Part shown: piece after piece, positions 44,259 to 58,102 of the stretch | How the letters are laid out: every line of letters begins with the position of its first letter | Numbering within the stretch: position 1 is the first letter of the stretch | The notes under the pieces: generated by a model | What the model was told of the DNA's origin: nothing | The model's input: only the letters and a program-made list of their open reading frames with translations | Databases searched by the model: none | Translations under genes and position numbers: made by a program | Source of the DNA: a virus | Strand: one strand, 5' to 3' | Virus record (IMG/VR): IMGVR_UViG_3300025121_000027 | Location: 43,006 to 107,005 of that record | Length of the DNA: 64,000 nt

Positions 44259-44368
44259 AATTTATTCTCCTTTTCATAAATCAGAATCCCTACTCAACAT
44301 GAGAACTATGAGAAGTGAGCATGTATCTTGTAGGGATTTTCAGCGGGTACCTCGCCTATCTGATATTG

Positions 44369-45031
44369 TTATTTCGATGCTGTATATTTTGCTGCAAAAT
44401 CTCTCATTTCAACATAAGATAATTCGCTATATTTCATTGCCGCTTCTCTAAATACTTCTGGAGTATAGAAAACAGGCGGCGGCATTGGAAATTCAGAATC
44501 GCTTACAACAACATTATATTTTTCATCAAGACGATAATAAACAATTCCCAATTCTTCATTTTCTTCATTGTTTTGTTTGTTTAACTTTACAACTTGAACA
44601 TGCCATGCAGCAATAGCATCTCCAACAGCAAGATAAATGGTATCGTCCAGCTTATTATTTCTTTCGAGAATAGAAAGAATAGATAATGCTTTGTCTACAC
44701 AAGCGCCATAAGCAACAATTTTTACTCCAGCTTTATTACTTTCTGCTGTCCATCCAGTAGCCCCATCCGGCATAGTAAAAGTTGCTGTTCCATCTGGCGC
44801 AATACTTACATTAGTATATTGATTTTCTGTTGCTCCTGAATAATTAGAATATGAATATTTTCTTACAAGTCTTTTTGCATTATAATAATTATAAATACCG
44901 GTTGTTATTAGCGTAGCAATTAAAGCTATAACCAAACACTTAATACTGTGTTTTAAATCACTACATTCTTCTTCTTTCTCTGCAAGATGTTTTCTCAATA
45001 TGACAAAAGACATAGGATTCATAATATTCAT
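44369..45031 (-). CDS. Membrane-anchored hypothetical protein
   Basis: One TM segment near the N-terminus. Confidence 0.55.
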   Translation of the reverse strand: MNIMNPMSFVILRKHLAEKEEECSDLKHSIKCLVIALIATLITTGIYNYYNAKRLVRKYSYSNYSGATENQYTNVSIAPDGTATFTMPDGATGWTAESNKAGVKIVAYGACVDKALSILSILERNNKLDDTIYLAVGDAIAAWHVQVVKLNKQNNEENEELGIVYYRLDEKYNVVVSDSEFPMPPPVFYTPEVFREAAMKYSELSYVEMRDFAAKYTASK

Positions 45032-45360
45032 CCTCTCGCTTGCCTGTTTTTATAGTTATTGATAAACTTCTTTTCTACCTCTGTAAGATCAGAAGGCATA
45101 TAGTAACCTTTATAAAAAGAAATATAATATGGATGATTGTGTTTTACAGAAGGATTGTCGTTTTTAAAAGAACTTCTTGTAAACAATGCTTGTCTTGCTC
45201 TTTCAAAAGCAATTTTCCTTCCTGTCAATTTGCAAGGATTATCTCCGTAAGAACAAACAGAAATACCCCTTGCATATTCATCGCCATCAATTAGAAAGCA
45301 TTCAGTAATCATCGGCTTGTTATCTTCTGTTCTCTCGTACAGATAATAATCTTTCATCAT
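45028..45360 (-). CDS. Hypothetical phage protein
   Basis: T.C....ARG.S.CS..DN..K..GR.IA..RA motif seen in small phage proteins. Confidence 0.6.
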   Translation of the reverse strand: MMKDYYLYERTEDNKPMITECFLIDGDEYARGISVCSYGDNPCKLTGRKIAFERARQALFTRSSFKNDNPSVKHNHPYYISFYKGYYMPSDLTEVEKKFINNYKNRQARG

Positions 45361-45387
45361 TGATTTTTCTCCTTTTAGTTTGTTGGA

Positions 45388-45756
45388 TTATCTGGCCATC
45401 CTTATAAGATCTTTCAACGCTTGGTATTCTGGATTAAATAAATCTGGAACTTCGGAAATAGTAGCAATGCCAGAAGCAATCAATCCAATTAATGAAGCAA
45501 TACAAAGAATGGAGAAAAAATAGACATATTTGTTCCCCTCATCCCAATCAAATAATTTGTATTTATCTCCAATAAACAAAAATGCGATTGTTATTAGTGT
45601 AAGAATAATAAAGAAACCAAATAAAATCAAAGCAGAATATGCTTCAACAATTTGTTGTTTAACCAACCATGGCCAAACTTGTTCTACAGTAACTCCGATT
45701 TTTTCGGCAATTTTATCAAGATAATTTGTAACAAGTTCTACATATTCTTTTTCCAT
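45388..45756 (-). CDS. Two-TM membrane protein
   Basis: LDKIAEKIGVT.E.VW..LVKQ...FNPEY.AL. Confidence 0.65.
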   Translation of the reverse strand: MEKEYVELVTNYLDKIAEKIGVTVEQVWPWLVKQQIVEAYSALILFGFFIILTLITIAFLFIGDKYKLFDWDEGNKYVYFFSILCIASLIGLIASGIATISEVPDLFNPEYQALKDLIRMAR

Positions 45757-45757
45757 G

Positions 45758-46120
45758 TCATTCTCTCCTTCTTCGTTTTGGTTTTTCTTCCGTTGTTTCC
45801 GTTGTTTCTTCTATGGCATCTTCTGTAACTTCTATCTTTTCATTATCATCTTTTGCTTTGAATGAAGGCAGGATTACATTGTTGTTTACCAAATATGAAT
45901 CTCTTTCGTATTGCGTTTCTTTGCAGAAAGATAAATATCTTTCACATTGATTTTTGCAAATAGTTTTAGATTGACAACATCCTAAATCAACCCACAATCC
46001 TCCTGTTAAATTCTTTTTATGTTGACATTCTTCTGGTGGGTTAAGAAGAAACCCTCCCCAGTTAGTTATTCTTTTAACAACTTTTCTTATTGGTTGTAAG
46101 CCGTCTCTTCGCTTTTTCAT
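45758..46120 (-). CDS. Cys-rich hypothetical protein
   Basis: ORF track; compact packing with neighbours. Confidence 0.5.
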   Translation of the reverse strand: MKKRRDGLQPIRKVVKRITNWGGFLLNPPEECQHKKNLTGGLWVDLGCCQSKTICKNQCERYLSFCKETQYERDSYLVNNNVILPSFKAKDDNEKIEVTEDAIEETTETTEEKPKRRRRE

Positions 46121-46336
46121 TTGTTACTCCCACATGTGCCGATAAAAACATACACTTGAGAAACTTGAATAGTTGATATAAAATCTTCTTTCTCTTTCGC
46201 TGAAATCATCCCATCTTTTTGTTTTGTTTAAACTATCCCAATTTTCTCTTCTGCTTAAATCACTCCAAAAACAATCTTTTTCAAAGGCTTCAGAGCCTAA
46301 ATACCAATGTTTGAATAAATGATTTATTCTCATTTG

Positions 46337-46624
46337 TTACCTCCACATATTCTTATATTTGATTTTATCTTCCCAATTTTCTATCAACTTCCATACGACA
46401 TGATTTTCTTTGTAATATTGTTTTTTTAATGGTGTTTTAAAATCTGCTTTCAGAAATTCAAATCCATAATAAGGATTGAAATGCCATCTATATACTTTGC
46501 CTTTATCTGCTGTTGCCCACCCTAAAAAATAGGCATGTGAACATTCTTCGCAGTAATTGCATGGATAAGAATTACAATGCAGACTTGAGCATATCGTTGG
46601 TGTTATCATATTCTTTCTTCCCAA
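46337..46624 (-). CDS. Cys-rich hypothetical protein
   Basis: ORF track. Confidence 0.5.
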   Translation of the reverse strand: MGRKNMITPTICSSLHCNSYPCNYCEECSHAYFLGWATADKGKVYRWHFNPYYGFEFLKADFKTPLKKQYYKENHVVWKLIENWEDKIKYKNMWR

Positions 46625-46853
46625 TCTTCTGTGTATTCATACTTTTCACAACTCCACATAGTAGTCCAAGACCAATGCTCGAAAAAGCAATGATAATGAT
46701 CTGGAAAGTCTCTCCACTTAGGATCAATACCGAGACAATCTGCTTTAACTTGCTGGAATAAACATTGTCTACATGCTGGCATTTGTCTATCCTCTTGCTT
46801 TACACTTAGGACATATCGGAGCGATGTTTAAAGTAAGATACTTTCATATATCA

Positions 46854-46882
46854 ATTATAATAAGAATAGAGCTAAAAATAAA
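46854..46882 (-). promoter_or_regulatory. Conserved sigma70-like phage promoter, copy 1
   Basis: Minus strand TTTATT-N17-TATAAT; same motif at 50181, 50506 and 62748. Confidence 0.75.
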
Positions 46883-46920
46883 GCCAAGGGCAAAGATACA
46901 TACTTGCCCTTGGCTTTATT
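46877..46920 (-). terminator. Intrinsic terminator closing the Ro-like operon
   Basis: 17-bp inverted repeat AATAAAGCCAAGGGCAA / TTGCCCTTGGCTTTATT followed by a T-run on the minus strand. Confidence 0.75.
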
Positions 46921-46979
46921 CTCTGCAACGTCAGAACAGCTTCTAATTGAGTTTAAACGCATATTCGGTTTCTTTTAAA

Positions 46980-47102
46980 ATACCGCATTGTTGGACTCGA
47001 ACCAACTCCTTTCTCATATGCTGTTCAAGCATGATCACCATTGGCCGTCGTGCTGTCTTACTGCATCATGTTGACTATTCTTCCCAGAACTAAATGCGGC
47101 AT
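46980..47102 (-). ncRNA. Enlarged tRNA-like RNA (~123 nt) with extended anticodon arm and no CCA
   Basis: 10-bp terminal stem AUGCCGCAUU/AAUGCGGUAU, UA linker, D-like arm GUUC/GAAU, long stem UCAACAUGAU/AUCAUG(C)UUGA, T arm GUUGG-UUCGAGU-CCAAC. Confidence 0.7.
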
Positions 47103-47107
47103 ATTTG

Positions 47108-47410
47108 TTACTTCAACCTTGCTTCTAGTTCCGCCACTTCTGCATCTACACTTTGCCGAATCTCTCTCCTGGACAATAGAGAAGCTTGCCGCGCTTTTGC
47201 CGCCTTCAACCTTCGGAGCAATTCATCTTTAGTGCGTCTGCTGATTTCAGAAACAATAGCAGAACTTTGAACCAAAACCCAATCAGGCGCATCGACTTTC
47301 AACTCTTCGTAGCCATCAGACAGTACTTTCAATTGTGCTTTGCCAAGAATCAATTCTTCCAAAGACAAGTTTTCCAAACAAGTAGTTTCGCTAATAATCA
47401 AGTTTCTCAT
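47108..47410 (-). CDS. Small alpha-helical coiled-coil protein, probable partner of the Ro-like protein
   Basis: LEEL...YEEL.V.APDWV...EISRR....L...LK....R...L.SR.E; same operon. Confidence 0.6.
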   Translation of the reverse strand: MRNLIISETTCLENLSLEELILGKAQLKVLSDGYEELKVDAPDWVLVQSSAIVSEISRRTKDELLRRLKAAKARQASLLSRREIRQSVDAEVAELEARLK

Positions 47411-47664
47411 TTTTGCTTTTCTCCTTTTTTGAGTTCTTTTATGGTAGATACCATTTTGCAGAAATCAAATAAGTATTTACGATCATTAAGAACTAAAACA
47501 ACATTAGTTTTCTTTTCTATTGAAAGAATCATACACTCTTCTTCACAAACATTTTGACTGCTTCCAGGAATCGCACTAACTACAATTTCTCTTATATGAA
47601 TTGTATTAAGTTTTCTTTCTTTTCTTTCTGCATACATTTTACCTTCCCTCCTTTTTAAATACAT
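47407..47664 (-). CDS. Hypothetical protein
   Basis: Overlaps both neighbours; GGAGG RBS before MYAERK. Confidence 0.55.
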   Translation of the reverse strand: MYLKRREGKMYAERKERKLNTIHIREIVVSAIPGSSQNVCEEECMILSIEKKTNVVLVLNDRKYLFDFCKMVSTIKELKKGEKQK

Positions 47665-49105
47665 CTTTAAGAGTCAACAAGGGAATCTGCATGATCTCAT
47701 CCACCAAACTATACTTACTTGTTCGCATGGTCTTAATCAAATTGGGAAGTGAATAATAATCTACATTATTCCCAAGCTCAAACTTTTGCAATTGAATATC
47801 TGCACTCTCGCAGTAAGAAGACATTCTATCATTTTCGCCAGGAACATGAAACATATAAACAGTTGGCTCAATACCAATATCTCTTCTATAATCATCATAA
47901 GCATTGTGAAAATAAGGAGAGCGATTATCACCGCCATCAGTACAGACAGCAATTCCGTTTACCACAATTCCTTTTTCTTTAATTAGCTCCAAGCCACAAC
48001 CAATAGAAGTGCTGCCAGTTGCAGTCAATCGTTTTGTATCATTCTTAATTTGCTCCAATGTCTTTCCTGTAACATCAAAATAAATCGGAGTATCATTAAA
48101 AAAAACAAGATGAACATTACCCTTAACTTGTCTTGCAATCAAAGCAGCAACATTTCTTGCAACTTCAATAGAAGTCTGCATAGAGCCAGAGCGATCCCCG
48201 AGCACAAGCCAATCACCATCAATACTACTATTGTCCAACTTATCTTCTTGCGCTTTGTGAAGTTTAGCGGAAAGCTTCTTATCTGTCTTTGCTACCGCTT
48301 CAGCAGCTTTCGTTATCTTCATCGAAGGTGTTTTCTTATCTTTCTGCATCCTTACTATACCATTATCATAAGCAGCTTTCAATGCAGGGTTTTCAAATAC
48401 TCCCATTTTTTGAAGCATGTTTGTATTTGTAATAAGTTCTGCTCCTGTCATGCGTTCAATCAGAGCAAGAATAACATCGGACTTTCCCTTAATACCACCA
48501 AGAGCACCAACAGCAATAAGATATGGTATCTTATGATTAAGAATTGCACCAGCGGCTTCTTGCGCTTTCATGTTTTTTAAATCTTTGACAACTTGAAAAA
48601 CACTATTCTTTGGATATTTCTTTTCAAATAGAATCTCTTGTGCTCGTTTATTTGGCTTGACATGATAGATAGCATAAAGACTTTTCATGGATTCTCTATG
48701 CTGCAATACAGTTCTATCCCACCAACCAATAGACTTTTCTCTTTCTCTGATAAACATTCTAACAGCTTGCTTTAACCAAGTACCGCCACCCTCTTGACAT
48801 AGCGGCAATTCTCTATGGTATCTACAAGCCCTCAAGAAGTCTTTAGGGGAAAGCTTGCAGAGATGAGCGGCGGCATTTTCATATAGTTCATCATCTTTGC
48901 TGCTGCGTAAAGATAGAATAGGAAAAGCCACTTTACTATCTCTTACTTCGCCCTTCAGTTCATTCCACGCAATGATATGTGCAAACAGTTCTGGCTCATG
49001 CTTTACTGCTTTCAAACCGATATCATTGTAAATAGAGAGATTGCCATGACCGACGCGCAGGAGTTGATTCACAATTTGATTTTGCGATGCTGCGATCTTT
49101 TCCAT
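47639..49105 (-). CDS. Divergent Ro60/TROVE-like helical domain plus vWA (MIDAS) protein
   Basis: Start refined to MEKIAAS (488 aa); ~290 aa helical N-domain then vWA with LGDRSGSM, TGSTS and CTDGGDN; flanked by tRNA-like RNAs as Ro60 loci are. Confidence 0.7.
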   Translation of the reverse strand: MEKIAASQNQIVNQLLRVGHGNLSIYNDIGLKAVKHEPELFAHIIAWNELKGEVRDSKVAFPILSLRSSKDDELYENAAAHLCKLSPKDFLRACRYHRELPLCQEGGGTWLKQAVRMFIREREKSIGWWDRTVLQHRESMKSLYAIYHVKPNKRAQEILFEKKYPKNSVFQVVKDLKNMKAQEAAGAILNHKIPYLIAVGALGGIKGKSDVILALIERMTGAELITNTNMLQKMGVFENPALKAAYDNGIVRMQKDKKTPSMKITKAAEAVAKTDKKLSAKLHKAQEDKLDNSSIDGDWLVLGDRSGSMQTSIEVARNVAALIARQVKGNVHLVFFNDTPIYFDVTGKTLEQIKNDTKRLTATGSTSIGCGLELIKEKGIVVNGIAVCTDGGDNRSPYFHNAYDDYRRDIGIEPTVYMFHVPGENDRMSSYCESADIQLQKFELGNNVDYYSLPNLIKTMRTSKYSLVDEIMQIPLLTLKDVFKKEGR

Positions 49106-49106
49106 T

Positions 49107-49217
49107 TTATTTTTCCTTTTGGTTGTTAGATTTTTTACAATAGAACAAATTATAGTGCTTTGTCGCTCTAACAGCAATTCTTAATCTTTTTGCTGCTTTT
49201 CTTTTATGTTTATTCAT
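49107..49217 (-). CDS. 36-aa basic peptide MNKHKRKAAKRLRIAVRATKHYNLFYCKKSNNQKEK
   Basis: Read manually; its stop is 1 nt before the ATG of the Ro-like gene. Confidence 0.4.
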   Translation of the reverse strand: MNKHKRKAAKRLRIAVRATKHYNLFYCKKSNNQKEK

Positions 49218-49239
49218 GATTTATTCTTTCCGTTTAAAG

Positions 49240-49317
49240 TGGCGCGCCTGGCAGGGCTCGAACCTGCGACCTAATGATTAGAAGTCATTTGCTCGTATCC
49301 AACTGAGCTACAGGCGC
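49240..49317 (-). tRNA. tRNA-Arg(UCU)
   Basis: GCGCCUG/CAGGCGC acceptor, D arm, AAUGA-CUUCUAA-UCAUU, GCAGG-UUCGAGC-CCUGC, encoded CCA. Confidence 0.95.
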
Positions 49318-49335
49318 ATAAATTTTTTCTAAAAA

Positions 49336-49378
49336 AATAGGCTTGAGAATCAGAATACTATTGTTTCTCAAGCCTATT
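49336..49378 (-). terminator. 14-bp hairpin followed by a U-tract
   Basis: AATAGGCTTGAGAA / TTCTCAAGCCTATT; A-run at 49331-49337 gives the U-tract on the minus strand. Confidence 0.55.
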
Positions 49379-49559
49379 AAAATTTGAGTGCGGATGCATT
49401 GTTCCTTCGATGTCCTTCGATAAAGGATTAGCACTCATATTCCTAAACTCATCAGCCGTTTTTAGCCATCCTCATATATTACTTTTGAGCATAATGATTT
49501 GCCTATGAGGACTGAAGGTATAAAACAAATCATATGTGACGTCTCAAAAGAAATCTAAC

Positions 49560-49634
49560 TGGTCGCCGAAGAAGGACTCGAACCTTGCATGAATGTTCCC
49601 AAAACACTCGTGTTACCACTACACTACTTCGGCG
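49560..49634 (-). tRNA. tRNA-Pro(UGG), apparently 8-bp acceptor / 4-bp T stem
   Basis: CGCCGAAG/CUUCGGCG, A73, CCA; AGUGU-UUUGGGA-ACAUU; AAGG-UUCGAGU-CCUU. Confidence 0.85.
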
Positions 49635-49644
49635 TAAAACTAAA

Positions 49645-49774
49645 AAAAGGGGAAAGTCGAAAAAGTTTTATACTACTTTTGATACAGGACTTGAACCTGC
49701 TACCGATTGCTTGGAATGCAATTGCTCTACCAAATTGAGCTAATCATGTAAACTTTTAAGCGGTATCCCCTTTT
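49645..49774 (-). ncRNA. Y-RNA-like element E1 carrying a UCC-anticodon tRNA module (49680-49746)
   Basis: Outer stem AAAAGGGGA/UCCCCUUUU, loop UACCGCUU/UCGACUU, inner stem AAAAGUUU/AAACUUUU, ACA, then a cloverleaf with 4-bp acceptor. Confidence 0.8.
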
Positions 49775-49783
49775 GTGTTCAAA

Positions 49784-49925
49784 TTAGCAAGAAGTCGTAT
49801 AAGCTATGTTGATTATACAGATTGATTTAGAGTCAATTGCGTATACCATTCCGCCTTATTCTCCGAAGAAAATAGAAGGAGTCGAACCTTCAAGTATCAT
49901 GTAAGCTTAATGCGGTGCTTGCTAA
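49784..49925 (-). ncRNA. Y-RNA-like element E2 carrying a circularly permuted CUA-anticodon tRNA (49810-49899)
   Basis: Outer stem UUAGCAAG/CUUGCUAA, CACCGCAU/UACGACUU, UAAGCU/AGCUUA, ACA; arm order T arm, UUCG-capped acceptor, D arm, anticodon arm. Confidence 0.82.
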
Positions 49926-49936
49926 ACTTTTTAAAA

Positions 49937-50007
49937 ATGGCGAGAAGTTATATAAGCTCTCTATTGTTTACTCCAGAAACATGTAAGCTTAAGATGATAC
50001 CCGCCAT
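49937..50007 (-). ncRNA. Y-RNA-like element E3, scaffold only
   Basis: AUGGCGGG/CUCGCCAU, UAUCAUCU/UAUAACUU, UAAGCUU/GAGCUUA, ACA, short apical hairpin. Confidence 0.72.
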
Positions 50008-50016
50008 AAGAACTTT

Positions 50017-50150
50017 TAAATCAGTAAGTCGAATAAGCTTTTTACTTTGGTTGCAATTGTTGGATTTGAACCAACTACTTATTCTTTATGAGAGAATCGC
50101 TCTACCAAATTGAGCTAAGTTGCGTGTAGGCTTAATCTGTAACTGATTTA
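50017..50150 (-). ncRNA. Y-RNA-like element E4 carrying a complete CAU-anticodon tRNA with CCA (50048-50124)
   Basis: UAAAUCAGU/ACUGAUUUA, UACAGAU/UUCGACUU, UAAGC/GCUUA, ACA; 77-nt tRNA CGCAACU...AAUUGCA-ACCA. Confidence 0.82.
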
Positions 50151-50161
50151 ATTTTCAAAGA
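50150..50161 (-). promoter_or_regulatory. boxA-like antitermination element
   Basis: UCUUUGAAAAUU between promoter and RNA array; identical copy at 50470-50481. Confidence 0.65.
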
Positions 50162-50180
50162 TCAATTGTTATTCTGAAAT

Positions 50181-50209
50181 ACTATAATAGAAAAGTTTTA
50201 AAAAATAAA
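50181..50209 (-). promoter_or_regulatory. Conserved promoter, copy 2 (drives the ncRNA array)
   Basis: TTTATT-N17-TATAGT. Confidence 0.72.
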
Positions 50210-50226
50210 GAGTAGATAAAATTTTT

Positions 50227-50465
50227 GTTTGCATGGCTGCCAGGATTCGAACCTGGACAACCGATTTGCGTAGCTTCTGCCCTACGCTCGTACGCTGCTG
50301 CGCGAGTAAATCCTCGATTGATCCGCACAGTTCGTCAGCAGATCCTTCTCGGCCAAAGTGCGGTGCGTTTCCGTGGGTTATTCAGCGTCATTTTGGAAGA
50401 TTGTTCATGCAATCTTTTGTCTACCCAAATGTCCTTTCGCCAACTTTCCGCCACAGCCAGCAAAC
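50227..50465 (-). ncRNA. Giant (~239 nt) tRNA-like RNA
   Basis: 12-bp terminal stem GUUUGCUGGCUG/CAGCCA(U)GCAAAC, UGGCGGAA D-arm start, T arm CCAGG-UUCGAAU-CCUGG, several internal hairpins; GC-rich; has its own promoter and boxA. Confidence 0.72.
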
Positions 50466-50469
50466 TATT

Positions 50470-50481
50470 AATTTTCAAAGA
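50470..50481 (-). promoter_or_regulatory. boxA-like antitermination element
   Basis: UCUUUGAAAAUU, identical to 50150-50161. Confidence 0.65.
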
Positions 50482-50505
50482 CCATCTTAAACTTGATTCT
50501 GACTT

Positions 50506-50534
50506 ATTATAATAGAGACTTTTAGAAAAATAAA
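50506..50534 (-). promoter_or_regulatory. Conserved promoter, copy 3
   Basis: TTTATT-N17-TATAAT. Confidence 0.75.
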
Positions 50535-50546
50535 GCCAAGCTAAAA

Positions 50547-51365
50547 TTAATTTCCAGTATAGCTTTTCGGCATAGGTATCTTATCCGAATTTGCCAACTT
50601 AGAACTTGCTTCCTGTATTTGCTTATCACAATCAACAATTTTCTTCATTATATCTTTGGCCTTTTCCGGTACAGAATCAAAAGCAAGCCTTACCAAATCC
50701 ATCCATCGTTTATTATTTTTCCCTCTAATTTCTTCTATCTTATTGATTAATTCTTGATCGCTTTGTTTTTCAGAAGATATGCCAAAAACTTTTTCAAAAG
50801 GATCTATATTTTTCTGTTCTTTCAACAATCCATATTCATAAACATCTACAAATTCACCATTAAGAAACATTGCTTCCTTAAAGATACCCTCTTTTTTAAA
50901 CCCGAGTTTTTCAAATACTTTTTGCATACCGATATTTGTTGCTGCTGTGCCACTCCAGATTCGATTCAATCCAAGTTTTTTAAATCCATGCTCGCATATC
51001 TCTTTAACCGCAAAAGTCGCAACTCCTTTACCATAATAATCTGGTTCACCAATTACAATGGCAATTTCAGCAGACCTATTAATTAGATCAATTCTTTGAA
51101 GTGAAACATTACCGATATGCTTAGGTCCTTTAACTAAGATACTCCAAATTATTCTTGATTCGTCATATTGCAATGTTTCTTTTATGTCTGTATCTGGAGA
51201 GTACGGGAAAAGTCCATGACTGTTTTTTGAAACTACTTCTGGACGATTAAACCAAAACTTATAATCAGAATTAATATTTTTGTTGTCGTATACTTCACAG
51301 AATGGAGCAAGATGAATAGTTCCTGCTTTTTCACTATAGGTTGTTGCTAAGACATTATAATTCAT
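50547..51365 (-). CDS. RimJ/RimL-type GNAT acetyltransferase (PseH-like) with an extra C-terminal helical domain
   Basis: HIGNVSL..ID..NRSAE..I.IGE..Y.GKG.A, N.GM..V.EKLGF.KEG. Confidence 0.8.
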   Translation of the reverse strand: MNYNVLATTYSEKAGTIHLAPFCEVYDNKNINSDYKFWFNRPEVVSKNSHGLFPYSPDTDIKETLQYDESRIIWSILVKGPKHIGNVSLQRIDLINRSAEIAIVIGEPDYYGKGVATFAVKEICEHGFKKLGLNRIWSGTAATNIGMQKVFEKLGFKKEGIFKEAMFLNGEFVDVYEYGLLKEQKNIDPFEKVFGISSEKQSDQELINKIEEIRGKNNKRWMDLVRLAFDSVPEKAKDIMKKIVDCDKQIQEASSKLANSDKIPMPKSYTGN

Positions 51366-51733
51366 TAACCATTCTCCTTTAACATCTCTTCTATTTTATT
51401 CCAATATAAATGTTCAACTGGTATTCCAAATTCATCCGCATTTACTTTTTCAATATGAATACCAAATGATTCTGTCCAGCCAGGAGCGCAAACAATAATC
51501 ATCTTATCCGCCCACTCTACAAGGATTGGCAAATCTTGAGCAAGCCAAAAGTTATGATCTAAATGACTGACTCCTTTTAATACTTTTGAAATCGGGTGGC
51601 TGTGAGATAAAGGAGAAAATACTACATGACCCGCTTTCATTAAAATGCCAGCAATCTTATCTGCTATATCAACGCGATATTCACAAACAGAATAATCCTT
51701 ATGAGAATAAGGGCAAGCCAAATAGATTTTCAT
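51365..51733 (-). CDS. Nucleoside 2-deoxyribosyltransferase-like protein (DUF1937-like)
   Basis: KIYLACPYSH, VFSPLSHSH, GW.ES.G...E. Confidence 0.8.
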   Translation of the reverse strand: MKIYLACPYSHKDYSVCEYRVDIADKIAGILMKAGHVVFSPLSHSHPISKVLKGVSHLDHNFWLAQDLPILVEWADKMIIVCAPGWTESFGIHIEKVNADEFGIPVEHLYWNKIEEMLKENG

Positions 51734-51735
51734 TT

Positions 51736-51996
51736 TTAAATCCTTTTCAGTTTAATTGCTTCATGTTTGTTTAGTTTGTCAATAAATACATCTACCATAT
51801 CTGGATGGCATACAACCAAATTAGCGCTTACAAAATAATAAAATTCAGAAGATGGAACTTGTTTAGTATATTTCTTTCTATACTTCTTAATCCATCTTGC
51901 ATTACTTTTCTTTTTAGGATGTTTAGTTTGAATAACTTCTAAAAGATTATTGTTTGTTTTTATTCTTATATTTGTTGGAAGAGGGTTAATCACCAT
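51736..51996 (-). CDS. Hypothetical basic protein
   Basis: ORF track; packed between neighbours. Confidence 0.55.
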   Translation of the reverse strand: MVINPLPTNIRIKTNNNLLEVIQTKHPKKKSNARWIKKYRKKYTKQVPSSEFYYFVSANLVVCHPDMVDVFIDKLNKHEAIKLKRI

Positions 51997-52957
51997 TTAA
52001 CAATCCTTTAATTACTTCAATATTGTCTGTATACAAAGGATTTCTATCGTCGCTGTATAGGCAATCCTTTAAAGAAGTTATCCACAAAGAAATTCCTTGC
52101 GGCGCTATAATATACTTATCTTCTTTCTCATTTGTTCTGAATATCTCTTCTTGATTGATTAACATTTCATGCGCTTTTTCCCCAGGTCTTCTTCCTACAA
52201 TTTTCCAATTACTTTCATCTGTTCCTGTCGTCGCTTTTATAAATACTTCTAACGAACAAGAAATCATCTTTGGAATATAAGTATACCCAGGCATACAGCT
52301 ATCAAGACAATCTAAAACAAACTTTGCAACTTTAGGAAGCGGAATCCAAAAGCGAGTCATTTCAGGATCAGTAATTGGTATTTTCTTTCCTTTATCAAGA
52401 AGTTTAATCATGTCTAAAATACTACCTCTTGAACCAATTACATTTCCATATCTAACAACAGCAAAATTAGTTCCCCACCCACCGCTATAAATGCTACCTC
52501 TTGACCATAATTTTTCAGCGCACATTTTGCTTGCGCCATATAGATTGATACTCTCCACCGCCTTATCGGTGCTAATAAACATTGCGCTTTTTACATTGGC
52601 AGCAATGCAAGCCATCATAACATTTTCTGTCCCATATACATTTGTCTTGATATATTCTAATGGATTATCTTCTGCTATCGGTACATGTTTCAATGCAGCA
52701 GTATGAATAACATGAGTAACACCTTTCAATGCTTCCGCTAATCTTCGATAGTCTCTAACGTCTCCTATAATAAAAGCAATAGGAGGCATGTCTTTTCCTT
52801 CTAATTGTTTCTTTAAATTATACTGCTTTAATTCGTCCCTACTATAAATCCGTATCCCTTTAATGTTTTTATTTCCTTCAAGTTGATTGAGAATTGCTTT
52901 TCCTAATGAACCAGTACCACCAGTTATTAGATATTCGCGTTTATATTCTATTTTCAT
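51986..52957 (-). CDS. pseB: UDP-N-acetylglucosamine 4,6-dehydratase (PseB/FlaA1-like)
   Basis: ITGGTGSLG, YSRDELKQ, HTAALKHVP, STDKA...NLYGASK, RYGNV.GSRGS, ITDPEMTRFW, RPGEK.HE. Confidence 0.9.
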   Translation of the reverse strand: MKIEYKREYLITGGTGSLGKAILNQLEGNKNIKGIRIYSRDELKQYNLKKQLEGKDMPPIAFIIGDVRDYRRLAEALKGVTHVIHTAALKHVPIAEDNPLEYIKTNVYGTENVMMACIAANVKSAMFISTDKAVESINLYGASKMCAEKLWSRGSIYSGGWGTNFAVVRYGNVIGSRGSILDMIKLLDKGKKIPITDPEMTRFWIPLPKVAKFVLDCLDSCMPGYTYIPKMISCSLEVFIKATTGTDESNWKIVGRRPGEKAHEMLINQEEIFRTNEKEDKYIIAPQGISLWITSLKDCLYSDDRNPLYTDNIEVIKGLLNGD

Positions 52958-53178
52958 TTAGCCTCTTTCGTTCTATCGTCTGCTGAAACAACAGTATCTA
53001 TAATACAGTATTTACAGAAACGGCCTTGATTAAAGTATTTACCGTTGCCAGTAATAATCTTTATAGATAGTTGTTTGTTAGTTATTGGGTCTTTATAAAT
53101 TATAAATGTAAGATCTGGATGACTGAAATTTTTATTGGTAATCTCCATGCCGCATATATCGCAAAATGTTTTAACCAT
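52954..53178 (-). CDS. Small zinc-finger protein
   Basis: FCDICG ... FCKYC. Confidence 0.6.
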   Translation of the reverse strand: MVKTFCDICGMEITNKNFSHPDLTFIIYKDPITNKQLSIKIITGNGKYFNQGRFCKYCIIDTVVSADDRTKEAK

Positions 53179-53180
53179 AG

Positions 53181-53729
53181 TTATACTTTCTGATAACTTT
53201 GTTGAAGCATCCTGAATATCTTTGCTTTAATAGAAGCAGAAGAGCGACCAAGAGTTTTAGATGTTTCTTGAATAAAATGATTTAATCCACTACGCAAACA
53301 TGCTTCTTCTACTACCGCCCACTTTATCTTCTCACTTAAATTCATTGCTTCTTTCTTATCGTCTTCAACATAGCTTACAGTTTGTTTTCCTGTAATGCGT
53401 TCCGTAATTGCTGCTTGAACATATCCTTTAGAAGCAAGATGTTTATTAGCAAGCTTCTCTTCAATCTTTTCTTCTACCCATTGCTGAATAGACTTAGGTC
53501 TTGATTTATTATAAAACTTTTTTTCTACTTCATTATATTCTTCTACAAGAGGATAAGTATCAAATGGTCCTTTAAAAGACATAAACTTTTCATCCCAAAC
53601 AATCCATCCGGCTTTATATCTATGGATGTTGCCAATCTTTTCTATCGGTTCTTCATTTGCAATTTGAGAATAAATTTCAGTATTCACTTTTACTTCTCCT
53701 TTCGCACTTTGATTGATGGTCTTTTGCAA
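53181..53729 (-). CDS. Hypothetical protein with C-terminal HTH-like segment
   Basis: SKTLGRSSASIKAK. Confidence 0.5.
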   Translation of the reverse strand: MQKTINQSAKGEVKVNTEIYSQIANEEPIEKIGNIHRYKAGWIVWDEKFMSFKGPFDTYPLVEEYNEVEKKFYNKSRPKSIQQWVEEKIEEKLANKHLASKGYVQAAITERITGKQTVSYVEDDKKEAMNLSEKIKWAVVEEACLRSGLNHFIQETSKTLGRSSASIKAKIFRMLQQSYQKV

Positions 53730-54565
53730 TCTTTTTCATCTGCTCTTAAATCAATATCTTTTCTATCTTCTCTCGACATAAAATTATCAATCCAGTTTTG
53801 CTCTACATCTGCTTTCTTCATTGCATTTGCAATATCGATTGTTTTAAATGCTGTTTCTGGATACCAGCAATGGCCATGCCTTGATTCATTACCTTTCAAA
53901 TCTACAAGATCAAAATGCATTTCAATTACTTTTGCCCCAGCATTAATAGCCGCAAGAATAGAGCCGATGTTTCTTGTATGGTCTGAATACCCAATCGCTC
54001 CACATACATGAGAAAAAGACTGAATGATTCCTTTTAGAATATCTATTCTTGCATCTTCTGCCGGATAAGAACTAATGCAATGGAAAATACAATCTTCATC
54101 ATTAGGTTTCATCTCTTTTGTAATAGAATAGATTTCAGAACGAGTACACATACCAGTAGAGACAAAAACAGGAAGATTTGTTTCTTTGCATTTACTAATC
54201 AATTCAGAGTTCATACATTCATAACTTGATACTTTTAGAAAGTCTACATACTTCGATACTACTTCAATATCTTCTACATTAAAAACAGAACAGCCAAAAC
54301 CAATCTTATGTAAATTGCAAAGTTGTTTTGTGTGAGCAAGAACTTCTTCTGTAATTTCTCCTCTCTTCGCCATTGCTATCCTATCTGGAAATTCTTTTGA
54401 CCATAATTTTTCTGCTTTATAGTATTGTAATTTGATAGCATCAAAGCCACAAATTCTTGCCGCTTCTACAAGCAAAGAAAGTCTATCTGGATCTTGATTA
54501 TGATTGCTGCCTAATTCAGCTACAAAATAAACGTCGTTATTTTGAGAATAAGGAAATGCTTTCAT
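53690..54565 (-). CDS. NeuB/PseI-family nonulosonic acid synthase
   Basis: VAELGSNHN, DAIKLQ, KVSSYE, STGM, HCISSYP, GYSDHT, GA.VIEMHF. Confidence 0.92.
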   Translation of the reverse strand: MKAFPYSQNNDVYFVAELGSNHNQDPDRLSLLVEAARICGFDAIKLQYYKAEKLWSKEFPDRIAMAKRGEITEEVLAHTKQLCNLHKIGFGCSVFNVEDIEVVSKYVDFLKVSSYECMNSELISKCKETNLPVFVSTGMCTRSEIYSITKEMKPNDEDCIFHCISSYPAEDARIDILKGIIQSFSHVCGAIGYSDHTRNIGSILAAINAGAKVIEMHFDLVDLKGNESRHGHCWYPETAFKTIDIANAMKKADVEQNWIDNFMSREDRKDIDLRADEKDCKRPSIKVRKEK

Positions 54566-54864
54566 AGTTTAATCCTTGTTTTATCAGTAGTATTTTCCAA
54601 AGTAATAGAAATTTTTCTATCTCCTATTTTAGTAATTACTACAACATAAATAGGAGCTAAGTACCCAGGTTCCGTAACAGGAAGTTTTTCATGGAAAGCA
54701 TGATATTCAATAGTATTGCCAAAGTCTGTAAATTCTGCTTTATAAATTATAAGACCAGAAGAAAATAACTTCTTTGCAACTTCATAACTATTTTCAAGAC
54801 AATATTTTGTGATAGCAAATTTACAACATCTATTATTTATAACAGGATTGCTCATATCTTTCAC
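54562..54864 (-). CDS. Hypothetical protein
   Basis: ORF track. Confidence 0.55.
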   Translation of the reverse strand: MKDMSNPVINNRCCKFAITKYCLENSYEVAKKLFSSGLIIYKAEFTDFGNTIEYHAFHEKLPVTEPGYLAPIYVVVITKIGDRKISITLENTTDKTRIKL

Positions 54865-54867
54865 CTA

Positions 54868-55170
54868 TTAGTTAAAGTTGAATTTGATTTTTAGAATGTT
54901 GGTAATATACTCTTTGATCTTTACTTTGATATAGTTCTCCAAAGGAAGATAATCGTCCATGTCTTCTATGTATCTATCGCTATAATTATCATCTTCTGAG
55001 TTCCAAATTTCTTCCCCGAGAAACTTTATTGCGACACCTTCGCCATCTGAATGAATTTCCAATAATCCACTTCTATCCATTACAAATTTATTCTCTGAGT
55101 TCTCTTCATAGATTTCAAGATTGATATTCTCCACAGTATTAAATGCTTCTTCAAGTAGTTTCCAACTCAT
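54868..55170 (-). CDS. Acidic hypothetical protein
   Basis: ORF track; ATGA overlap. Confidence 0.55.
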   Translation of the reverse strand: MSWKLLEEAFNTVENINLEIYEENSENKFVMDRSGLLEIHSDGEGVAIKFLGEEIWNSEDDNYSDRYIEDMDDYLPLENYIKVKIKEYITNILKIKFNFN

Positions 55171-56444
55171 ACTAATTCACTCCTATATTCCCAAACTTTA
55201 TTGAATGCTTTTCCGATATCTATCATGTCATTTGTTGTACTGTTTGGAGCATGAGCGATTGTCAAAAATAGCTTCTCTTTATATAGAGATTCTACAACTG
55301 GTCTATGAATTGCTTCTTGATCTTTTCTCCAAGGCATTTGATAGATAGGCTTAATATAGCCGCATCCAATTTGAACACCTTCGCCATCTCTCCCATCTCT
55401 TGGAGTTAATTCCGCTTTAACCACTTCAATAAACTTATCTCTATGTAGGCTATTTGCTTTGCTTTTATCCCACAAATAAGCAGCAACATAATATGAATGA
55501 GTACATCCGCATCTAATTTTTGCAGGAGTAATTGCAGGAATTTGACTTAACATAATATTAAGATTCATAACGTTTTCGCGTCTTGTTTCAATGTTATAAT
55601 CTAACTTTTTCAATTGCTCTCTTGCTACTGCTGCTTGAAATTCTGTCATGCGAAGATTAAGACCAATCATATTATAATGAATAGATTCCTCGCCAGAATC
55701 ATAAATGTCATTCATTACTGATTCTGCATGATTCATAATCAGCCTGCATCTATTTTCTAAATTTCCACTGTTTGTAACAATCATCCCACCTTCGCCGCAA
55801 GTCATATGCTTGCCAAAGTTCAAAGAGAAAACACTTATATCCGCAATTGTTCCTGAATATCTATCGAAGTATTTTGAGCCTGGTGCCTGAGCACAATCTG
55901 AAATAAGATATATTTCTTTTTTGTACTTCTCTTCTGCTTCCCTAATAATAGATTTCAAATTAGAATAGTCACAAGGTTGGCCGAAAATATCTACTGCAAT
56001 AATTGCTTTTGTTTTCTCTGTAATTAATGATACAACACTTTTAGGATCGATACAAAAATAATCCTCTTCTACATCTGCAAAGACAGGAGTTGCTCCAAAC
56101 CATAGGGGAACAGTAGCAGAACAAGTCATACTATAAGGAGTTACAATAACTTCATCTCCTTGTTTCAAGCCGATTGCGGCGCAAGCAATAAACAAACCAG
56201 ACGTAGCACTATTACAAGCAATAGCTTGTCCGTTGACATTAAATTTATAAGACCAAGACAATTCAAGCCCTTGAATTTCTGGTCCACCCATAGAATGAGG
56301 ACCTTTGTTTGCTCTATATCCAGATGGTCTCCCAAAATTAAAAACTCGCTTTAGTGCTTCTTTTTCATTTTCATTATATGTATTTTGGCTCGGAAAATTT
56401 GTAGTTCTGATTTTTCGCCCACCAAAAATAGCAAGTTCAGACAT
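55167..56444 (-). CDS. DegT/DnrJ/EryC1/StrS aminotransferase (PseC-like)
   Basis: NSATSGL, GDEVIV, DCAQAPG, FSLNFGKHMTCGEGG (PLP-binding Lys), G.NLRMTEFQAA. Confidence 0.92.
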   Translation of the reverse strand: MSELAIFGGRKIRTTNFPSQNTYNENEKEALKRVFNFGRPSGYRANKGPHSMGGPEIQGLELSWSYKFNVNGQAIACNSATSGLFIACAAIGLKQGDEVIVTPYSMTCSATVPLWFGATPVFADVEEDYFCIDPKSVVSLITEKTKAIIAVDIFGQPCDYSNLKSIIREAEEKYKKEIYLISDCAQAPGSKYFDRYSGTIADISVFSLNFGKHMTCGEGGMIVTNSGNLENRCRLIMNHAESVMNDIYDSGEESIHYNMIGLNLRMTEFQAAVAREQLKKLDYNIETRRENVMNLNIMLSQIPAITPAKIRCGCTHSYYVAAYLWDKSKANSLHRDKFIEVVKAELTPRDGRDGEGVQIGCGYIKPIYQMPWRKDQEAIHRPVVESLYKEKLFLTIAHAPNSTTNDMIDIGKAFNKVWEYRSELV

Positions 56445-56462
56445 AGTTTTAATCCTTTCTTT

Positions 56463-57089
56463 TTAATATTTTGAATAAGCAAAATTATTTTCTTGCCCTT
56501 TTTTGTTTTTGACTCTGTTGCACATTTTTCTTATAATATATTCTGATTTATTCAATTCTTTTGCAGCAGCATTTGCGCTTGAAAATTCTTTACCATCAAT
56601 TATCCATATTAAAGATTTTCTTGTGTTTCTTCCATTTGTTTTATGTGTTACAAATCTACAGTTGCCTGGTTCGTAATTCCCATTATTGTCTTCTCTATCT
56701 ATCTCTAACCCTTTCTTCCAACCATTAGACATACACCAGTCATAGAATGTTTTAACGTCATCTTTCCATTCATCACATATCTTAATGCCGCGTCCACCAT
56801 AATATTTATAATCTTTACTTTTAACATTTGTACATCTTTCTTTGATATGCTTCCATGTTTTGTATAACAAATGATATCTTAACCCATGTATAGTATTTCT
56901 TTTGATTATCTCTTCTTTAAATAAACAACCACAACTTTTAGTATTTCCACTTTTGATATTTTCTCCAATGGCTATAAAATCATTTCCGCAGTCGCACTTA
57001 CATTTCCATAAAAGTTTACCCATTTTATTCTTTCCAGTGAGTTGAATTACAATAAATCTCCCATATCTTTTGTTGGTAATATCAATCAC
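56463..57089 (-). mobile_element. HNH-type homing endonuclease inside the sugar cluster
   Basis: W.C.CDCG, TKSCGC, YGGRGI.ICDEW, IDR.DNNGNYEPGNCRF. Confidence 0.82.
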
Positions 57090-58102
57090 AATTTTTCCTT
57101 TCTATCTTTATCAATCAATAGTTTATCAATCACATTATGAACTCTTAAAGCATTACTCATGTTGCAAATAGAAGAGTATTCTTCTTTCATAAGTACTTTA
57201 TAAACGTGTTGATATAAATTCCGTAAAGAGAACTTTAAATCAGTTTCAAAGAAACAACTTGATACTCTTTCTTGAATTGATGGAAGAGAATAATAATCTC
57301 CATACGTTTCTTCTTTTTTACAAAGAGTAGTTGATATATTCAAAAAATGATTATCAAAAATCCATCTTCTCTTTCCTGTCAAAAGATGCATTTCAAAACA
57401 ATCAAACTTCCTACCGTCAACAGGAACAATAAAGATATTATCACACTTAGAATACTTCAATCTAACTGCATATGTAGGGTCTGAAGAGTTATAATCAAGA
57501 ATTGGTTTTGTATCTACAATCTCTCCTTCTATAAATGTTCCTGCTACCCAATTTAAAATGTCGATTGCATGGCTCGCATCCCTTACAAACCCCCTTGTAT
57601 AGTAAAAGACAATACTTTGAATATCATTTTCTTTCTGGATATGTTCTATTGCATATCTTATATATTGAGAAAATCTTCTTCCATAATTGACGATAACTTG
57701 AATATTAGATTCTCTACAAAGCCAATCTATTCTTGTTGCTTCATAGATATTTTGTCCTGCTGGCTTTTCAAGGATGATAACTTTAGGTAGGGTATTTGGT
57801 CCTGCATGTTGTCTTGATATTTCTTCTATCATTGCTAAGTGCGTAGAAGTAGGAGAAGCAATAACAATAACATCTGCTATCGTTTCATGAAAGCCAAGAG
57901 CGATTTTGCAATTCCATTTATCTGCTGCTCGTTCTGCTTTTACTTCATCTACATCTCTTACCCATGTAAGTTCAAAATTAGGATCAGAATAAACAGCATG
58001 GGCATGAGTCAATGGAAATTCTGTATTTGGAGAATCTAAATGATCCAGTTTTAAACCACCGATTGACCCTGCACCTATTAGACCAACGGTAAATTTATTC
58101 AT
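57086..58102 (-). CDS. Gfo/Idh/MocA-family oxidoreductase
   Basis: LIGAGSIG, IASPT.TH, EKP, VNY.RRF, SHAID. Confidence 0.88.
   Translation of the reverse strand: MNKFTVGLIGAGSIGGLKLDHLDSPNTEFPLTHAHAVYSDPNFELTWVRDVDEVKAERAADKWNCKIALGFHETIADVIVIASPTSTHLAMIEEISRQHAGPNTLPKVIILEKPAGQNIYEATRIDWLCRESNIQVIVNYGRRFSQYIRYAIEHIQKENDIQSIVFYYTRGFVRDASHAIDILNWVAGTFIEGEIVDTKPILDYNSSDPTYAVRLKYSKCDNIFIVPVDGRKFDCFEMHLLTGKRRWIFDNHFLNISTTLCKKEETYGDYYSLPSIQERVSSCFFETDLKFSLRNLYQHVYKVLMKEEYSSICNMSNALRVHNVIDKLLIDKDRKEKL

What the first reader, a model, noticed from the sequence alone, without database searches (positions are those of the whole stretch)
50017..50150. Complete initiator-like tRNA (CAU, C1:A72 mismatch, CCA) caged inside a Y-like scaffold
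Seen: a 77-nt cloverleaf at 50048-50124 starting CGC and ending GCA-ACCA. It has the C1:A72 mismatch typical of tRNA-fMet but lacks the three consecutive G-C pairs of the initiator anticodon stem and has a second acceptor mismatch. Leader and trailer pair into the shared scaffold. A tRNA scanner would probably call a plain tRNA-Met and miss the cage. Inference: either a precursor released conditionally by RNase P and 3' trimming under control of the Ro-like protein, or bait for fMet-tRNA-targeting toxins such as enteric VapC.
Basis: partly seen in the sequence, partly recalled or inferred. Interest (0 to 1): 0.78.

Follow-up and report, generated by a model that had tools for sequence, protein, structure and literature searches.

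The report
tRNA-shaped head on phage Ro60 RNA
A complete tRNA look-alike sits inside a conserved double-helix handle next to a hidden Ro60 gene in a phage; relatives keep the handle and the cloverleaf but change the anticodon, so it is most likely a Y-RNA-type tRNA mimic, not an initiator tRNA.

Summary
A 77-nt cloverleaf with anticodon CAU and an encoded ACCA lies at 50048-50124 on the minus strand. It has C1.A72 and C6.A67 mismatches, and its leader and trailer pair. The window is part of a complete 107-kb phage genome.

The flanks belong to a real RNA family. A covariance model built almost entirely from other phages finds exactly four units in the window, E1 included. It finds 102 units in 42 of 66 related loci, all on the strand of one gene. 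Pairing is 92% against 52% in shuffles.

That gene has no TROVE Pfam match, but its predicted structure matches Ro60/Rsr over its full length.

The initiator reading fails. C1 is the Y of the family-wide motif UACAYG, and the family consensus there is a U1-A72 pair. A roughly 90%-identical relative has U1 and anticodon AUG. Across homologous units U33 and the stems are kept, while the triplet is among the least conserved columns. Several triplets are ones bacteria do not use.

Best reading: a Ro60-bound Y-like RNA with a non-permuted tRNA-shaped head. This is a new variant of YrlA-type tRNA mimicry. Binding, expression and processing are untested.

This scan had already noted the same scaffold on other phage DNA.

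The parts
50017..50150 (-). E1, the whole unit: scaffold plus tRNA-shaped module
   Evidence: R1 hit at 50018-50149, 34.4 bits, E 3.5e-8; fold
50142..50150 (-). 5' strand of the outer stem (UAAAUCAGU)
   Evidence: Pairs with 50017-50025. The homologous helix covaries at all 8 pairs across 102 units.
50135..50141 (-). 5' side of the internal loop. It reads UACAGAU here; the family consensus is YACUG.
   Evidence: Motif listing. The relative in run X9 reads UACUG (50138 T>A).
50130..50134 (-). 5' strand of the inner stem (UAAGC)
   Evidence: Pairs with GCUUA at 50034-50038. Inner-helix covariation.
50125..50129 (-). Junction CUACA. UACA is the start of the family motif UACAYG, whose Y and G are tRNA positions 1 and 2.
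   Evidence: UACA is invariant in alignments A2 and A4
50048..50124 (-). tRNA-shaped module: 7-position acceptor with C1.A72 and C6.A67, discriminator A73 and an encoded CCA
   Evidence: ARAGORN; Rfam tRNA 60.1 bits. Alone it folds into a cloverleaf at -13.6 kcal/mol.
50088..50090 (-). Anticodon CAU
   Evidence: All three letters differ in the relative's contig, giving AUG.
50039..50047 (-). A-rich single-stranded linker after CCA (AAGUAAAAA)
   Evidence: An A-rich run follows NCCA in the homologous units
50034..50038 (-). 3' strand of the inner stem (GCUUA)
50026..50033 (-). 3' side of the internal loop (UUCGACUU). CGACUU is the family signature.
   Evidence: G, A and U of the motif are invariant and its two C's at least 90% conserved in A4. 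The motif-only scan gave 97 pairs on the gene strand and 0 on the other.
50017..50025 (-). 3' strand of the outer stem (ACUGAUUUA)
49937..50007 (-). E2, a sibling unit with only a short hairpin as module
   Evidence: R1 48.3 bits
49784..49925 (-). E3, a sibling unit with a permuted, T-arm-first tRNA-like module
   Evidence: R1 37.7 bits; partial Rfam tRNA match, 26 bits
49646..49773 (-). E4, a sibling unit with a tRNA-like module. Its D arm is identical to E1's, its acceptor is 4 bp, and it has no CCA.
   Evidence: R1 29.2 bits; Rfam tRNA 47.8 bits
47639..49177 (-). Ro60-like gene. The likely true start is the ATG near 49105, giving 488 aa.
   Evidence: AlphaFold2 model, pLDDT 83. Foldseek top hits are Ro60/Rsr/TROVE chains. 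Homologues are 488 aa long.

Best explanation
E1 is one unit of a phage array of modular Y-like noncoding RNAs that work with the adjacent Ro60-like protein. A conserved handle closes the RNA. The handle is an 8-9 bp outer helix, an internal loop with YACUG on one side and CGACUU on the other, a 5-6 bp inner helix, and the junction UACAYG.

Inferred: this handle is the Ro60 binding site. The head, here a complete non-permuted cloverleaf with NCCA, is displayed as a tRNA mimic. It would dock a tRNA-binding factor, such as a nuclease, a processing enzyme or a host tRNA-targeting protein, onto the Ro60 particle, or titrate that factor away.

The head is not under selection as a Met or fMet decoder. 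Because E1 has a 7-position acceptor and NCCA, RNase P may nick it at C1, as it does Mycobacterium smegmatis YrlA. The two pieces would stay held together by the handle.

Shown: the structure, the family, the linkage to a protein with a Ro60 fold, and the lack of anticodon constraint. Inferred: Ro60 binding, the partner, and any processing.
For: Scaffold family:
- R1 finds four tandem units in the window and none elsewhere in the window. Its less sensitive genome-wide look over the 107-kb phage found matches only in that array.
- It finds 102 units in 42 of 66 loci, all on the Ro60 gene's strand; 97 end upstream of the gene.
- 91.8% of cells are paired against 51.7% in shuffles. 423 cells changed on both sides. 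Slid controls give 30-43%.
- The motif-only scan, which does not select for pairing, gives 6.86 of 9 flank pairs against 4.23 +/- 0.15 with shuffled partners.
- Whole-record scans of four phage records (392 kb) place every hit within about 3 kb of the Ro60-like gene. One of those records had been fetched without using the protein.

Protein: full-length structural matches to X. laevis Ro60, D. radiodurans Rsr, human Ro60 and Thermus phage phiLo Ro60, TM about 0.6. An invariant DxSxS, T, D set is kept.

tRNA-in-handle architecture: conserved in 15 units from 13 phage records, 90.1% paired against 62.7% shuffled. All five anticodon-stem pairs covary.

No decoding constraint:
- The relative's contig has C1 to U and CAU to AUG.
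- Triplets in homologous units include AUC, AAU, AAA, ACU and UUA.
- Anticodon columns show 0.22-0.62 pairwise identity against a mean of 0.70, with U33 invariant.

Precedents: YrlA is a Ro60-bound tRNA mimic, and M. smegmatis YrlA is cut by RNase P, gains CCA, and both halves stay on Rsr (PMC4201824). Phage phiLo Ro60 binds two upstream Y-like RNAs and host PNPase (PMC12135203). E1's D arm is letter for letter the Rfam YrlA consensus D arm.
Against: - There is no expression or end-mapping data, and Ro60 binding to this handle is untested.
- E1 keeps every tRNA invariant, a natural anticodon loop (CUCAUAA) and an encoded CCA, as do the phage's two ordinary tRNAs (Pro, Arg). It could therefore also serve as a tRNA.
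- NCCA recurs in about 10 of 15 homologous units. That suggests the acceptor end matters and might become free.
- The relative's differences come from one metagenomic contig at depth 5.5, and its 3' trailer could not be aligned.
- The handle does not carry the GNCGAA motif of known bacterial Y RNAs.
Confidence: 0.6

Rival explanations
1. E1 is a precursor of a working tRNA, an elongator Met or a lysidine-modified Ile. RNase P cuts at C1, an endonuclease cuts in the A-rich linker, exonucleases trim back to CCA, and the freed 77-nt tRNA decodes. The handle and Ro60 would only chaperone, store or time this release.
For: - Canonical cloverleaf at 60.1 bits with all invariant positions.
- Encoded CCA, as in the phage's tRNA-Pro and tRNA-Arg (read).
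- A natural CUCAUAA loop.
- A single-stranded A/U-rich linker after CCA, of the kind that RNase E-type cleavage prefers (general knowledge, not tested here).
- RNase P does cut a Y RNA with a 7-bp acceptor (PMC4201824).
Against: - The anticodon is not kept in a roughly 90%-identical relative, which has AUG, an A34 triplet that bacteria do not use.
- Homologous units carry non-decoding triplets.
- Two of the seven acceptor pairs are mismatched.
- The same handle encloses plain hairpins and permuted modules that cannot be tRNAs.
- The phage already has tRNA-Ile (UAU) for AUA.
- The nearest tRNA genes are not Met.
Confidence: 0.15
2. The tRNA-shaped heads are decoys or baits for host tRNA-targeting defences, such as anticodon nucleases or acceptor-end toxins. 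Their anticodon triplets change quickly to track those enemies, and Ro60 stabilises or recycles the bait.
For: - The triplet is among the fastest-changing parts of otherwise conserved units, while U33, A37/A38 and the stem are kept.
- All three anticodon letters differ in a relative that differs at about 10% of positions overall.
- In bacteria, Ro60 and YrlA sit in an RNA-repair operon induced by damaged tRNAs (PMC7790460, abstract seen).
- Jumbo-phage surveys place TROVE proteins among RNA-repair and conflict systems (PMC7824862).
Against: - Relaxed constraint explains the triplet turnover equally well.
- No nuclease, ligase or repair gene was found in this phage: no RtcB and no CCA-adding enzyme. 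The Rnl1 search was uninformative, because it matched nothing in its control genomes either.
- The host is unknown.
- The CCA is not a free end in the intact unit.
Confidence: 0.15
3. E1 mimics initiator tRNA specifically, as bait for toxins aimed at fMet-tRNA such as VapC, or as a formylatable species.
For: C1.A72, G2:C71, C3:G70, A73 and the UUCAAAU T loop resemble what I recall of E. coli tRNA-fMet (own knowledge, not tested here); the letters in E1 are read.
Against: - C1 and G2 belong to the family-wide UACAYG motif.
- Position 1:72 is U-A in 9 of 14 homologous units with letters there, 15 aligned, and U in the close relative.
- There is no run of three G-C pairs in the anticodon stem, and 11:24 is C:G.
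- The anticodon is not conserved.
Confidence: 0.04
4. E1 is an ordinary tRNA gene whose flanks pair by chance, or only serve as generic transcript punctuation unrelated to Ro60.
For: AT-rich flanks can pair by chance. The fold z-score alone is modest, -3.3.
Against: The flanks match a model built from other phages at E 3.5e-8. Covariation is strong. Hits are exclusive to the gene's strand and lie beside the Ro60-like gene.
Confidence: 0.02

Closest known systems
YrlA (Rfam RF02553), the bacterial Y RNA-like tRNA mimic bound by Rsr/Ro60
   Same: It is encoded within a few kb of a Ro60 gene on the same strand. It has a closing stem plus a tRNA-like domain. The D arm UAGCUCAAUUUGGUAGAGC is identical to the YrlA consensus. 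M. smegmatis YrlA has a 7-bp acceptor, is cut by RNase P and carries CCA.
   Different: - In YrlA the tRNA-like domain is permuted: T arm first, acceptor closed by a loop, and the handle continuing from the anticodon stem. E1 is a complete, non-permuted cloverleaf joined to the handle at its acceptor end.
- YrlA's GNCGAAN0-1G motif on the 5' strand is absent. E1 has CGACUU on the 3' strand instead.
- The Rfam score is 21.5 bits against a cut-off of 69.
Thermus phage phiLo Ro60 with Yrl1 and Yrl2 (PMC12135203)
   Same: A phage-encoded Ro60 with several Y-like RNAs just upstream. The phiLo protein structures (9kop, 9l5y) are the top structural matches of the window's protein.
   Different: The phiLo RNAs were picked by a CGAA motif, and no tRNA module is described for them. 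Here there is a different conserved handle and exchangeable heads, and the protein has no TROVE Pfam match.
Deinococcus radiodurans Yrn1 and metazoan Y RNAs
   Same: The 5' and 3' ends form a bulged helix that Ro60 binds, and an effector module sits at the far end. According to PMC4201824, Yrn1 can be drawn with D-loop features, a T-like stem-loop and an anticodon-like arm.
   Different: No Rfam Y RNA model (metazoan Y_RNA included) matches at E up to 10. The conserved loop letters differ: YACUG/CGACUU here against GGUCCGA in animal Y RNAs (5' motif quoted).
Ordinary phage tRNA genes
   Same: The tRNA model score, the invariant positions and the encoded CCA.
   Different: E1 is enclosed by a conserved handle. 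Its anticodon is not conserved in relatives, and two acceptor pairs are mismatched.

Membership tests
tRNA (Rfam RF00005) | Cloverleaf model score above the curated cut-off | tested here: met
   60.1 bits against 29. ARAGORN calls tRNA-Met cat.
tRNA (as a decoder) | Anticodon kept among close relatives and homologues | tested here: not met
   CAU becomes AUG in a roughly 90%-identical contig. The 15 homologous units carry 11 different triplets, including AUC, AAU, AAA, ACU and UUA.
Bacterial initiator tRNA | Mismatch at 1:72 | tested here: inconclusive
   C.A is present in the window. The relative has U1, and the family consensus is U-A, seen in 9 of 14 units with letters there.
Bacterial initiator tRNA | Three consecutive G-C pairs, 29-31 with 39-41 | tested here: not met
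   The stem is AUUCU/AGAAU, with one G-C pair (sequence).
Bacterial initiator tRNA | A11:U24 | tested here: not met
   It is C11:G24 (sequence).
YrlA (RF02553) | Model score above the cut-off | tested here: not met
   21.5 bits against 69. The match rests on the D arm.
YrlA (RF02553) | GNCGAAN0-1G motif near the 5' end | tested here: not met
   It is absent from the 5' strand UAAAUCAGUUACAGAUUAAGCCUACA. UUCGACUU lies on the 3' strand. The motif is defined in PMC4201824.
YrlA (RF02553) | Permuted tRNA-like domain with a closed acceptor | tested here: not met
   E1 has the normal order, with an open acceptor joined to the handle. Its sibling E3 is permuted.
YrlA (RF02553) | Within 4 kb of a Ro60 gene and on the same strand | tested here: met
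   E1 lies about 0.9 kb upstream of the Ro60-like gene on the same strand.
Metazoan-type Y RNA (Rfam) | Model match | tested here: not met
   No Y RNA family other than YrlA at E up to 10.
   34.4 bits, E 3.5e-8. E1 deviates at two letters, UACAG and UACACG; both are consensus in the relative.
Ro60 / TROVE protein (the neighbouring gene) | Helical-repeat (HEAT-type) region plus a C-terminal VWA domain | tested here: met
   pLDDT 83. The top 12 listed Foldseek rows are Ro60/Rsr/TROVE chains, E 9e-11 to 2.5e-7, about 500 aligned columns, TM about 0.6.
Ro60 / TROVE protein (the neighbouring gene) | Pfam TROVE sequence match | tested here: not met
   Only a weak VWA_2 match, E 0.0018. No PDB sequence match. 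PHROGs phrog_850, 'RNA-binding protein', 1.5e-10.
Ro60-Y RNA particle | Physical binding of the RNA by the protein | not testable with these tools
   This needs a gel-shift assay or immunoprecipitation.

The most novel reading that the evidence does not exclude
Phage Ro60 particles carry a cassette system. One constant handle takes exchangeable heads shaped like tRNAs, permuted tRNAs or hairpins. The anticodon triplets of the tRNA-shaped heads turn over quickly because each head is a tuned bait or adaptor for a particular host tRNA-binding enzyme, such as an anticodon nuclease of a defence system. E1 would be the head currently showing CAU together with a formyltransferase-like acceptor end.
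Probability: 0.2. Interest if true: 0.85.

Novelty: new variant of a known kind. Interest (0 to 1): 0.6.

Why it matters
Ro60 and Y RNAs are studied in animals, where Ro60 is an autoantigen, and in a few bacteria. What the tRNA-like module does remains open.

This family offers hundreds of natural variants that share one handle and differ in the head. They lie next to a Ro60 relative that sequence profiles miss. That gives a direct way to ask what the head recruits.

It also bears on annotation. tRNA scanners count such units as phage tRNA genes, here a 'tRNA-Met', although the anticodon is not under decoding constraint.

Tried and rejected
- No RNA holder was listed among the sequencing runs, so expression and RNA ends could not be examined.
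- An exact-pattern search for the E1 body in viral contigs found nothing.
- A protein search of metagenome contigs gave only two loci with little upstream DNA.
- The pattern TACAYG plus D arm in viral contigs returned mostly ordinary tRNAs. Only 10 of 114 had the handle.
- A single-protein search of viral contigs gave one distant locus.
- The GenBank phage collection holds only one distant, unannotated relative of the protein and no copy of the handle.
- The promoter consensus scan found none.
- The minimum-energy fold of the whole unit does not draw the cloverleaf: -28.0 kcal/mol against -19.9 for handle plus cloverleaf. I did not use this either way, because it is usual for AT-rich unmodified tRNA sequences.
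- The search for RNA ligase Rnl1 in the phage found nothing, but it also matched nothing in its control genomes, so it is uninformative.
- I considered a hairpin-loop inversion as the origin of CAU to AUG, since the two triplets are reverse complements. The listed differences neither prove nor exclude it.
- No protein-complex prediction was attempted, because the partner in question is an RNA.

Full report
**What is there**

The window is part of a complete 107,005-bp phage record with terminal repeats. On the minus strand ARAGORN calls tRNA-Met (cat) at 50048-50124. Rfam's tRNA model gives 60.1 bits and marks non-standard pairs at 1:72 (C.A) and 6:67 (C.A).

The sequence ends GCA-A-CCA. The anticodon stem AUUCU/AGAAU has one G-C pair, and 11:24 is C:G. 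The 26-nt leader and 31-nt trailer pair as UAAAUCAGU/ACUGAUUUA and UAAGC/GCUUA.

**The flanks are a conserved RNA handle**

Four tandem units share the same frame: E1 50017-50150, E2 49937-50007, E3 49784-49925 and E4 49646-49773.

I fetched 73 viral loci that encode relatives of the downstream 512-aa protein. A scan by sequence motifs alone, YACUG...UACAYG...CGACUU, gave these results:
- 97 motif pairs on the gene's strand and none on the other.
- 82 unique pairs, 76 of them upstream of the gene.
- The 9 nt outside the motifs pair at 6.86 of 9, against 4.23 +/- 0.15 with shuffled partners.
- 72 different outer-strand sequences.

Covariance model R1 was built from 15 short units of other phages plus E2. 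Its results:
- It finds exactly four hits in the 64-kb window, E1 at 34.4 bits and E 3.5e-8. A less sensitive genome-wide look with R1 over the 107-kb phage found matches only within that array.
- It finds 102 hits in 42 of 66 loci, all on the gene's strand, and 97 of them end upstream of the gene.
- On those 102 units, 91.8% of cells form pairs against 51.7% in shuffles and 30-43% when partners are slid. 423 cells changed on both sides.
- In whole-record scans of four phage records, every hit lies within about 3 kb of the gene. One of those records had been reached through a tRNA-type pattern, not through the protein.

Rfam has no family for the handle.

**The protein is a hidden Ro60**

Pfam sees only a weak VWA_2 match, and PDB sequence searches find nothing. 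The AlphaFold2 model from 30 homologues has pLDDT 83 and pTM 0.72.

That model matches Ro60 chains over about 500 columns, at TM about 0.6 and E 9e-11 to 2.5e-7. The chains are Thermus phage phiLo Ro60, X. laevis Ro60, D. radiodurans Rsr and human Ro60. The next best matches are isolated VWA domains. The family keeps an invariant DxSxS, T, D set.

**The heads are modular**

Among 106 units, a rough sorting by length and T-loop position gives about 39 with a D-arm-first tRNA-like head, 27 with a T-arm-first (permuted) head and 30 that are short (100 nt or less, hairpin-type heads); the rest are other kinds.

E1 belongs to a subclass in which a whole cloverleaf is joined through its acceptor end. 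In about 10 of 15 aligned units, NCCA and an A-rich run follow the acceptor. Over these 15 units from 13 phage records, handle plus cloverleaf is 90.1% paired against 62.7% in shuffles. All five anticodon-stem pairs covary, and the D and T stems are 100% paired.

**Why it is not an initiator, and probably not a decoder**

- The first two nucleotides of the 'tRNA' (C1, G2) are the last two of the family-wide junction motif UACAYG. That motif is also present in units whose head is a plain hairpin.
- The homologous 1:72 position is U-A in 9 of 14 units with letters there, out of 15 aligned.
- A contig in a groundwater run, about 90% identical, shows C1 to U, UACAG to the consensus UACUG, and an extra inner-stem pair. 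All three anticodon letters are changed, CAU to AUG, while the stem is untouched.
- In the wider family, U33, A37 and A38 are mostly kept. The triplets are diverse and include AUC, AAU, AAA, ACU and UUA. The share of 'natural' triplets, 16 of 23, is about what chance gives by my own count.
- Ten orthologous units share the outer helix UUCCCUG/CAGGGAA. In them the anticodon columns have pairwise identity 0.22-0.62, against 0.70 for the rest, with U33 invariant.
- The closest tRNA genes in cultured phages are Ile, Thr, Lys and Arg at 76-80% identity. None is Met.

**Mechanism**

*Shown:* a conserved handle, a conserved tRNA shape, tight linkage to a protein with the Ro60 fold, and no constraint on the triplet.

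*Inferred:* the protein binds the handle, and the head acts as a tRNA mimic that brings or traps a tRNA-binding factor. Two precedents support this. YrlA is a Ro60-bound tRNA mimic, and M. smegmatis YrlA is cut by RNase P, carries CCA, and both halves stay on Rsr (PMC4201824). Phage phiLo Ro60 binds upstream Y-like RNAs and host PNPase (PMC12135203).

E1's D arm is identical to the Rfam YrlA consensus D arm. E1 is the only unit in the window with a 7-position acceptor and NCCA, so it is the best RNase P candidate among the four. Cleavage there would leave a nicked RNA held together by 13-15 bp. Release of a free tRNA would need a second cut in the A-rich linker.

**What remains open**

- Expression, RNA ends and protein binding are all untested.
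- Conserved NCCA in the subclass hints that the acceptor end has a role.
- The fast turnover of the triplet could reflect relaxed constraint or selection for change.
- The phage lacks RtcB and a CCA-adding enzyme. The Rnl1 search was uninformative.

**Comparison and novelty**

E1 works like a YrlA-type Y RNA but fails YrlA's membership tests on score, motif and topology. It is best filed as a new variant: a non-permuted full tRNA head on a distinct, phage-specific Ro60 handle.

This scan had already noted the same handle on other phage DNA and on the sibling unit E4. My checks were made independently and agree with those notes.

Noticed in passing
window 50227-50465 (-): A 239-nt GC-rich RNA-like unit lies just upstream of E1. 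It has a long closing stem and a canonical T arm (GGUUCGAAUCC). It has no Rfam match at E up to 5 and no match to handle model R1.
   Followed up: partly
window 49318-49559 (-): About 240 nt lie between tRNA-Pro and tRNA-Arg. The stretch contains a long hairpin followed by a U-run (terminator-like, near 49330-49380) and a CUGAUGAG word. No Rfam family matches.
   Followed up: no
window 49560-49634 and 49240-49317 (-): Two ordinary tRNAs, Pro-UGG and Arg-UCU, both with encoded CCA, sit between the Y-like array and the Ro60-like gene and have no handle. Relatives also keep a tRNA right next to the gene, for example tRNA-Pro in L009.
   Followed up: partly
window 41562-58000 (-): Genes for nonulosonic-acid synthesis and transfer flank the RNA array: NeuB-like 53690-54565, a PseB-like dehydratase 51986-52957, a GNAT 50547-51365 and a Maf-like TPR protein 41562-44258.
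   Followed up: no
L029, L055, L060 (loci): Some relatives carry six or seven handle units in a row. In L012 the array lies downstream of the Ro60-like gene instead of upstream.
   Followed up: partly
window 49992-50045, seen in run X9: In the roughly 90%-identical relative, the 54 nt between E1's CCA and E2's inner stem are replaced by 196 other letters. This suggests one extra unit in its array.
   Followed up: no
A5 (10 loci): Many D-arm-first units have no NCCA. Instead a small CCCGAAAGGG-type hairpin follows the acceptor 3' strand.
   Followed up: no
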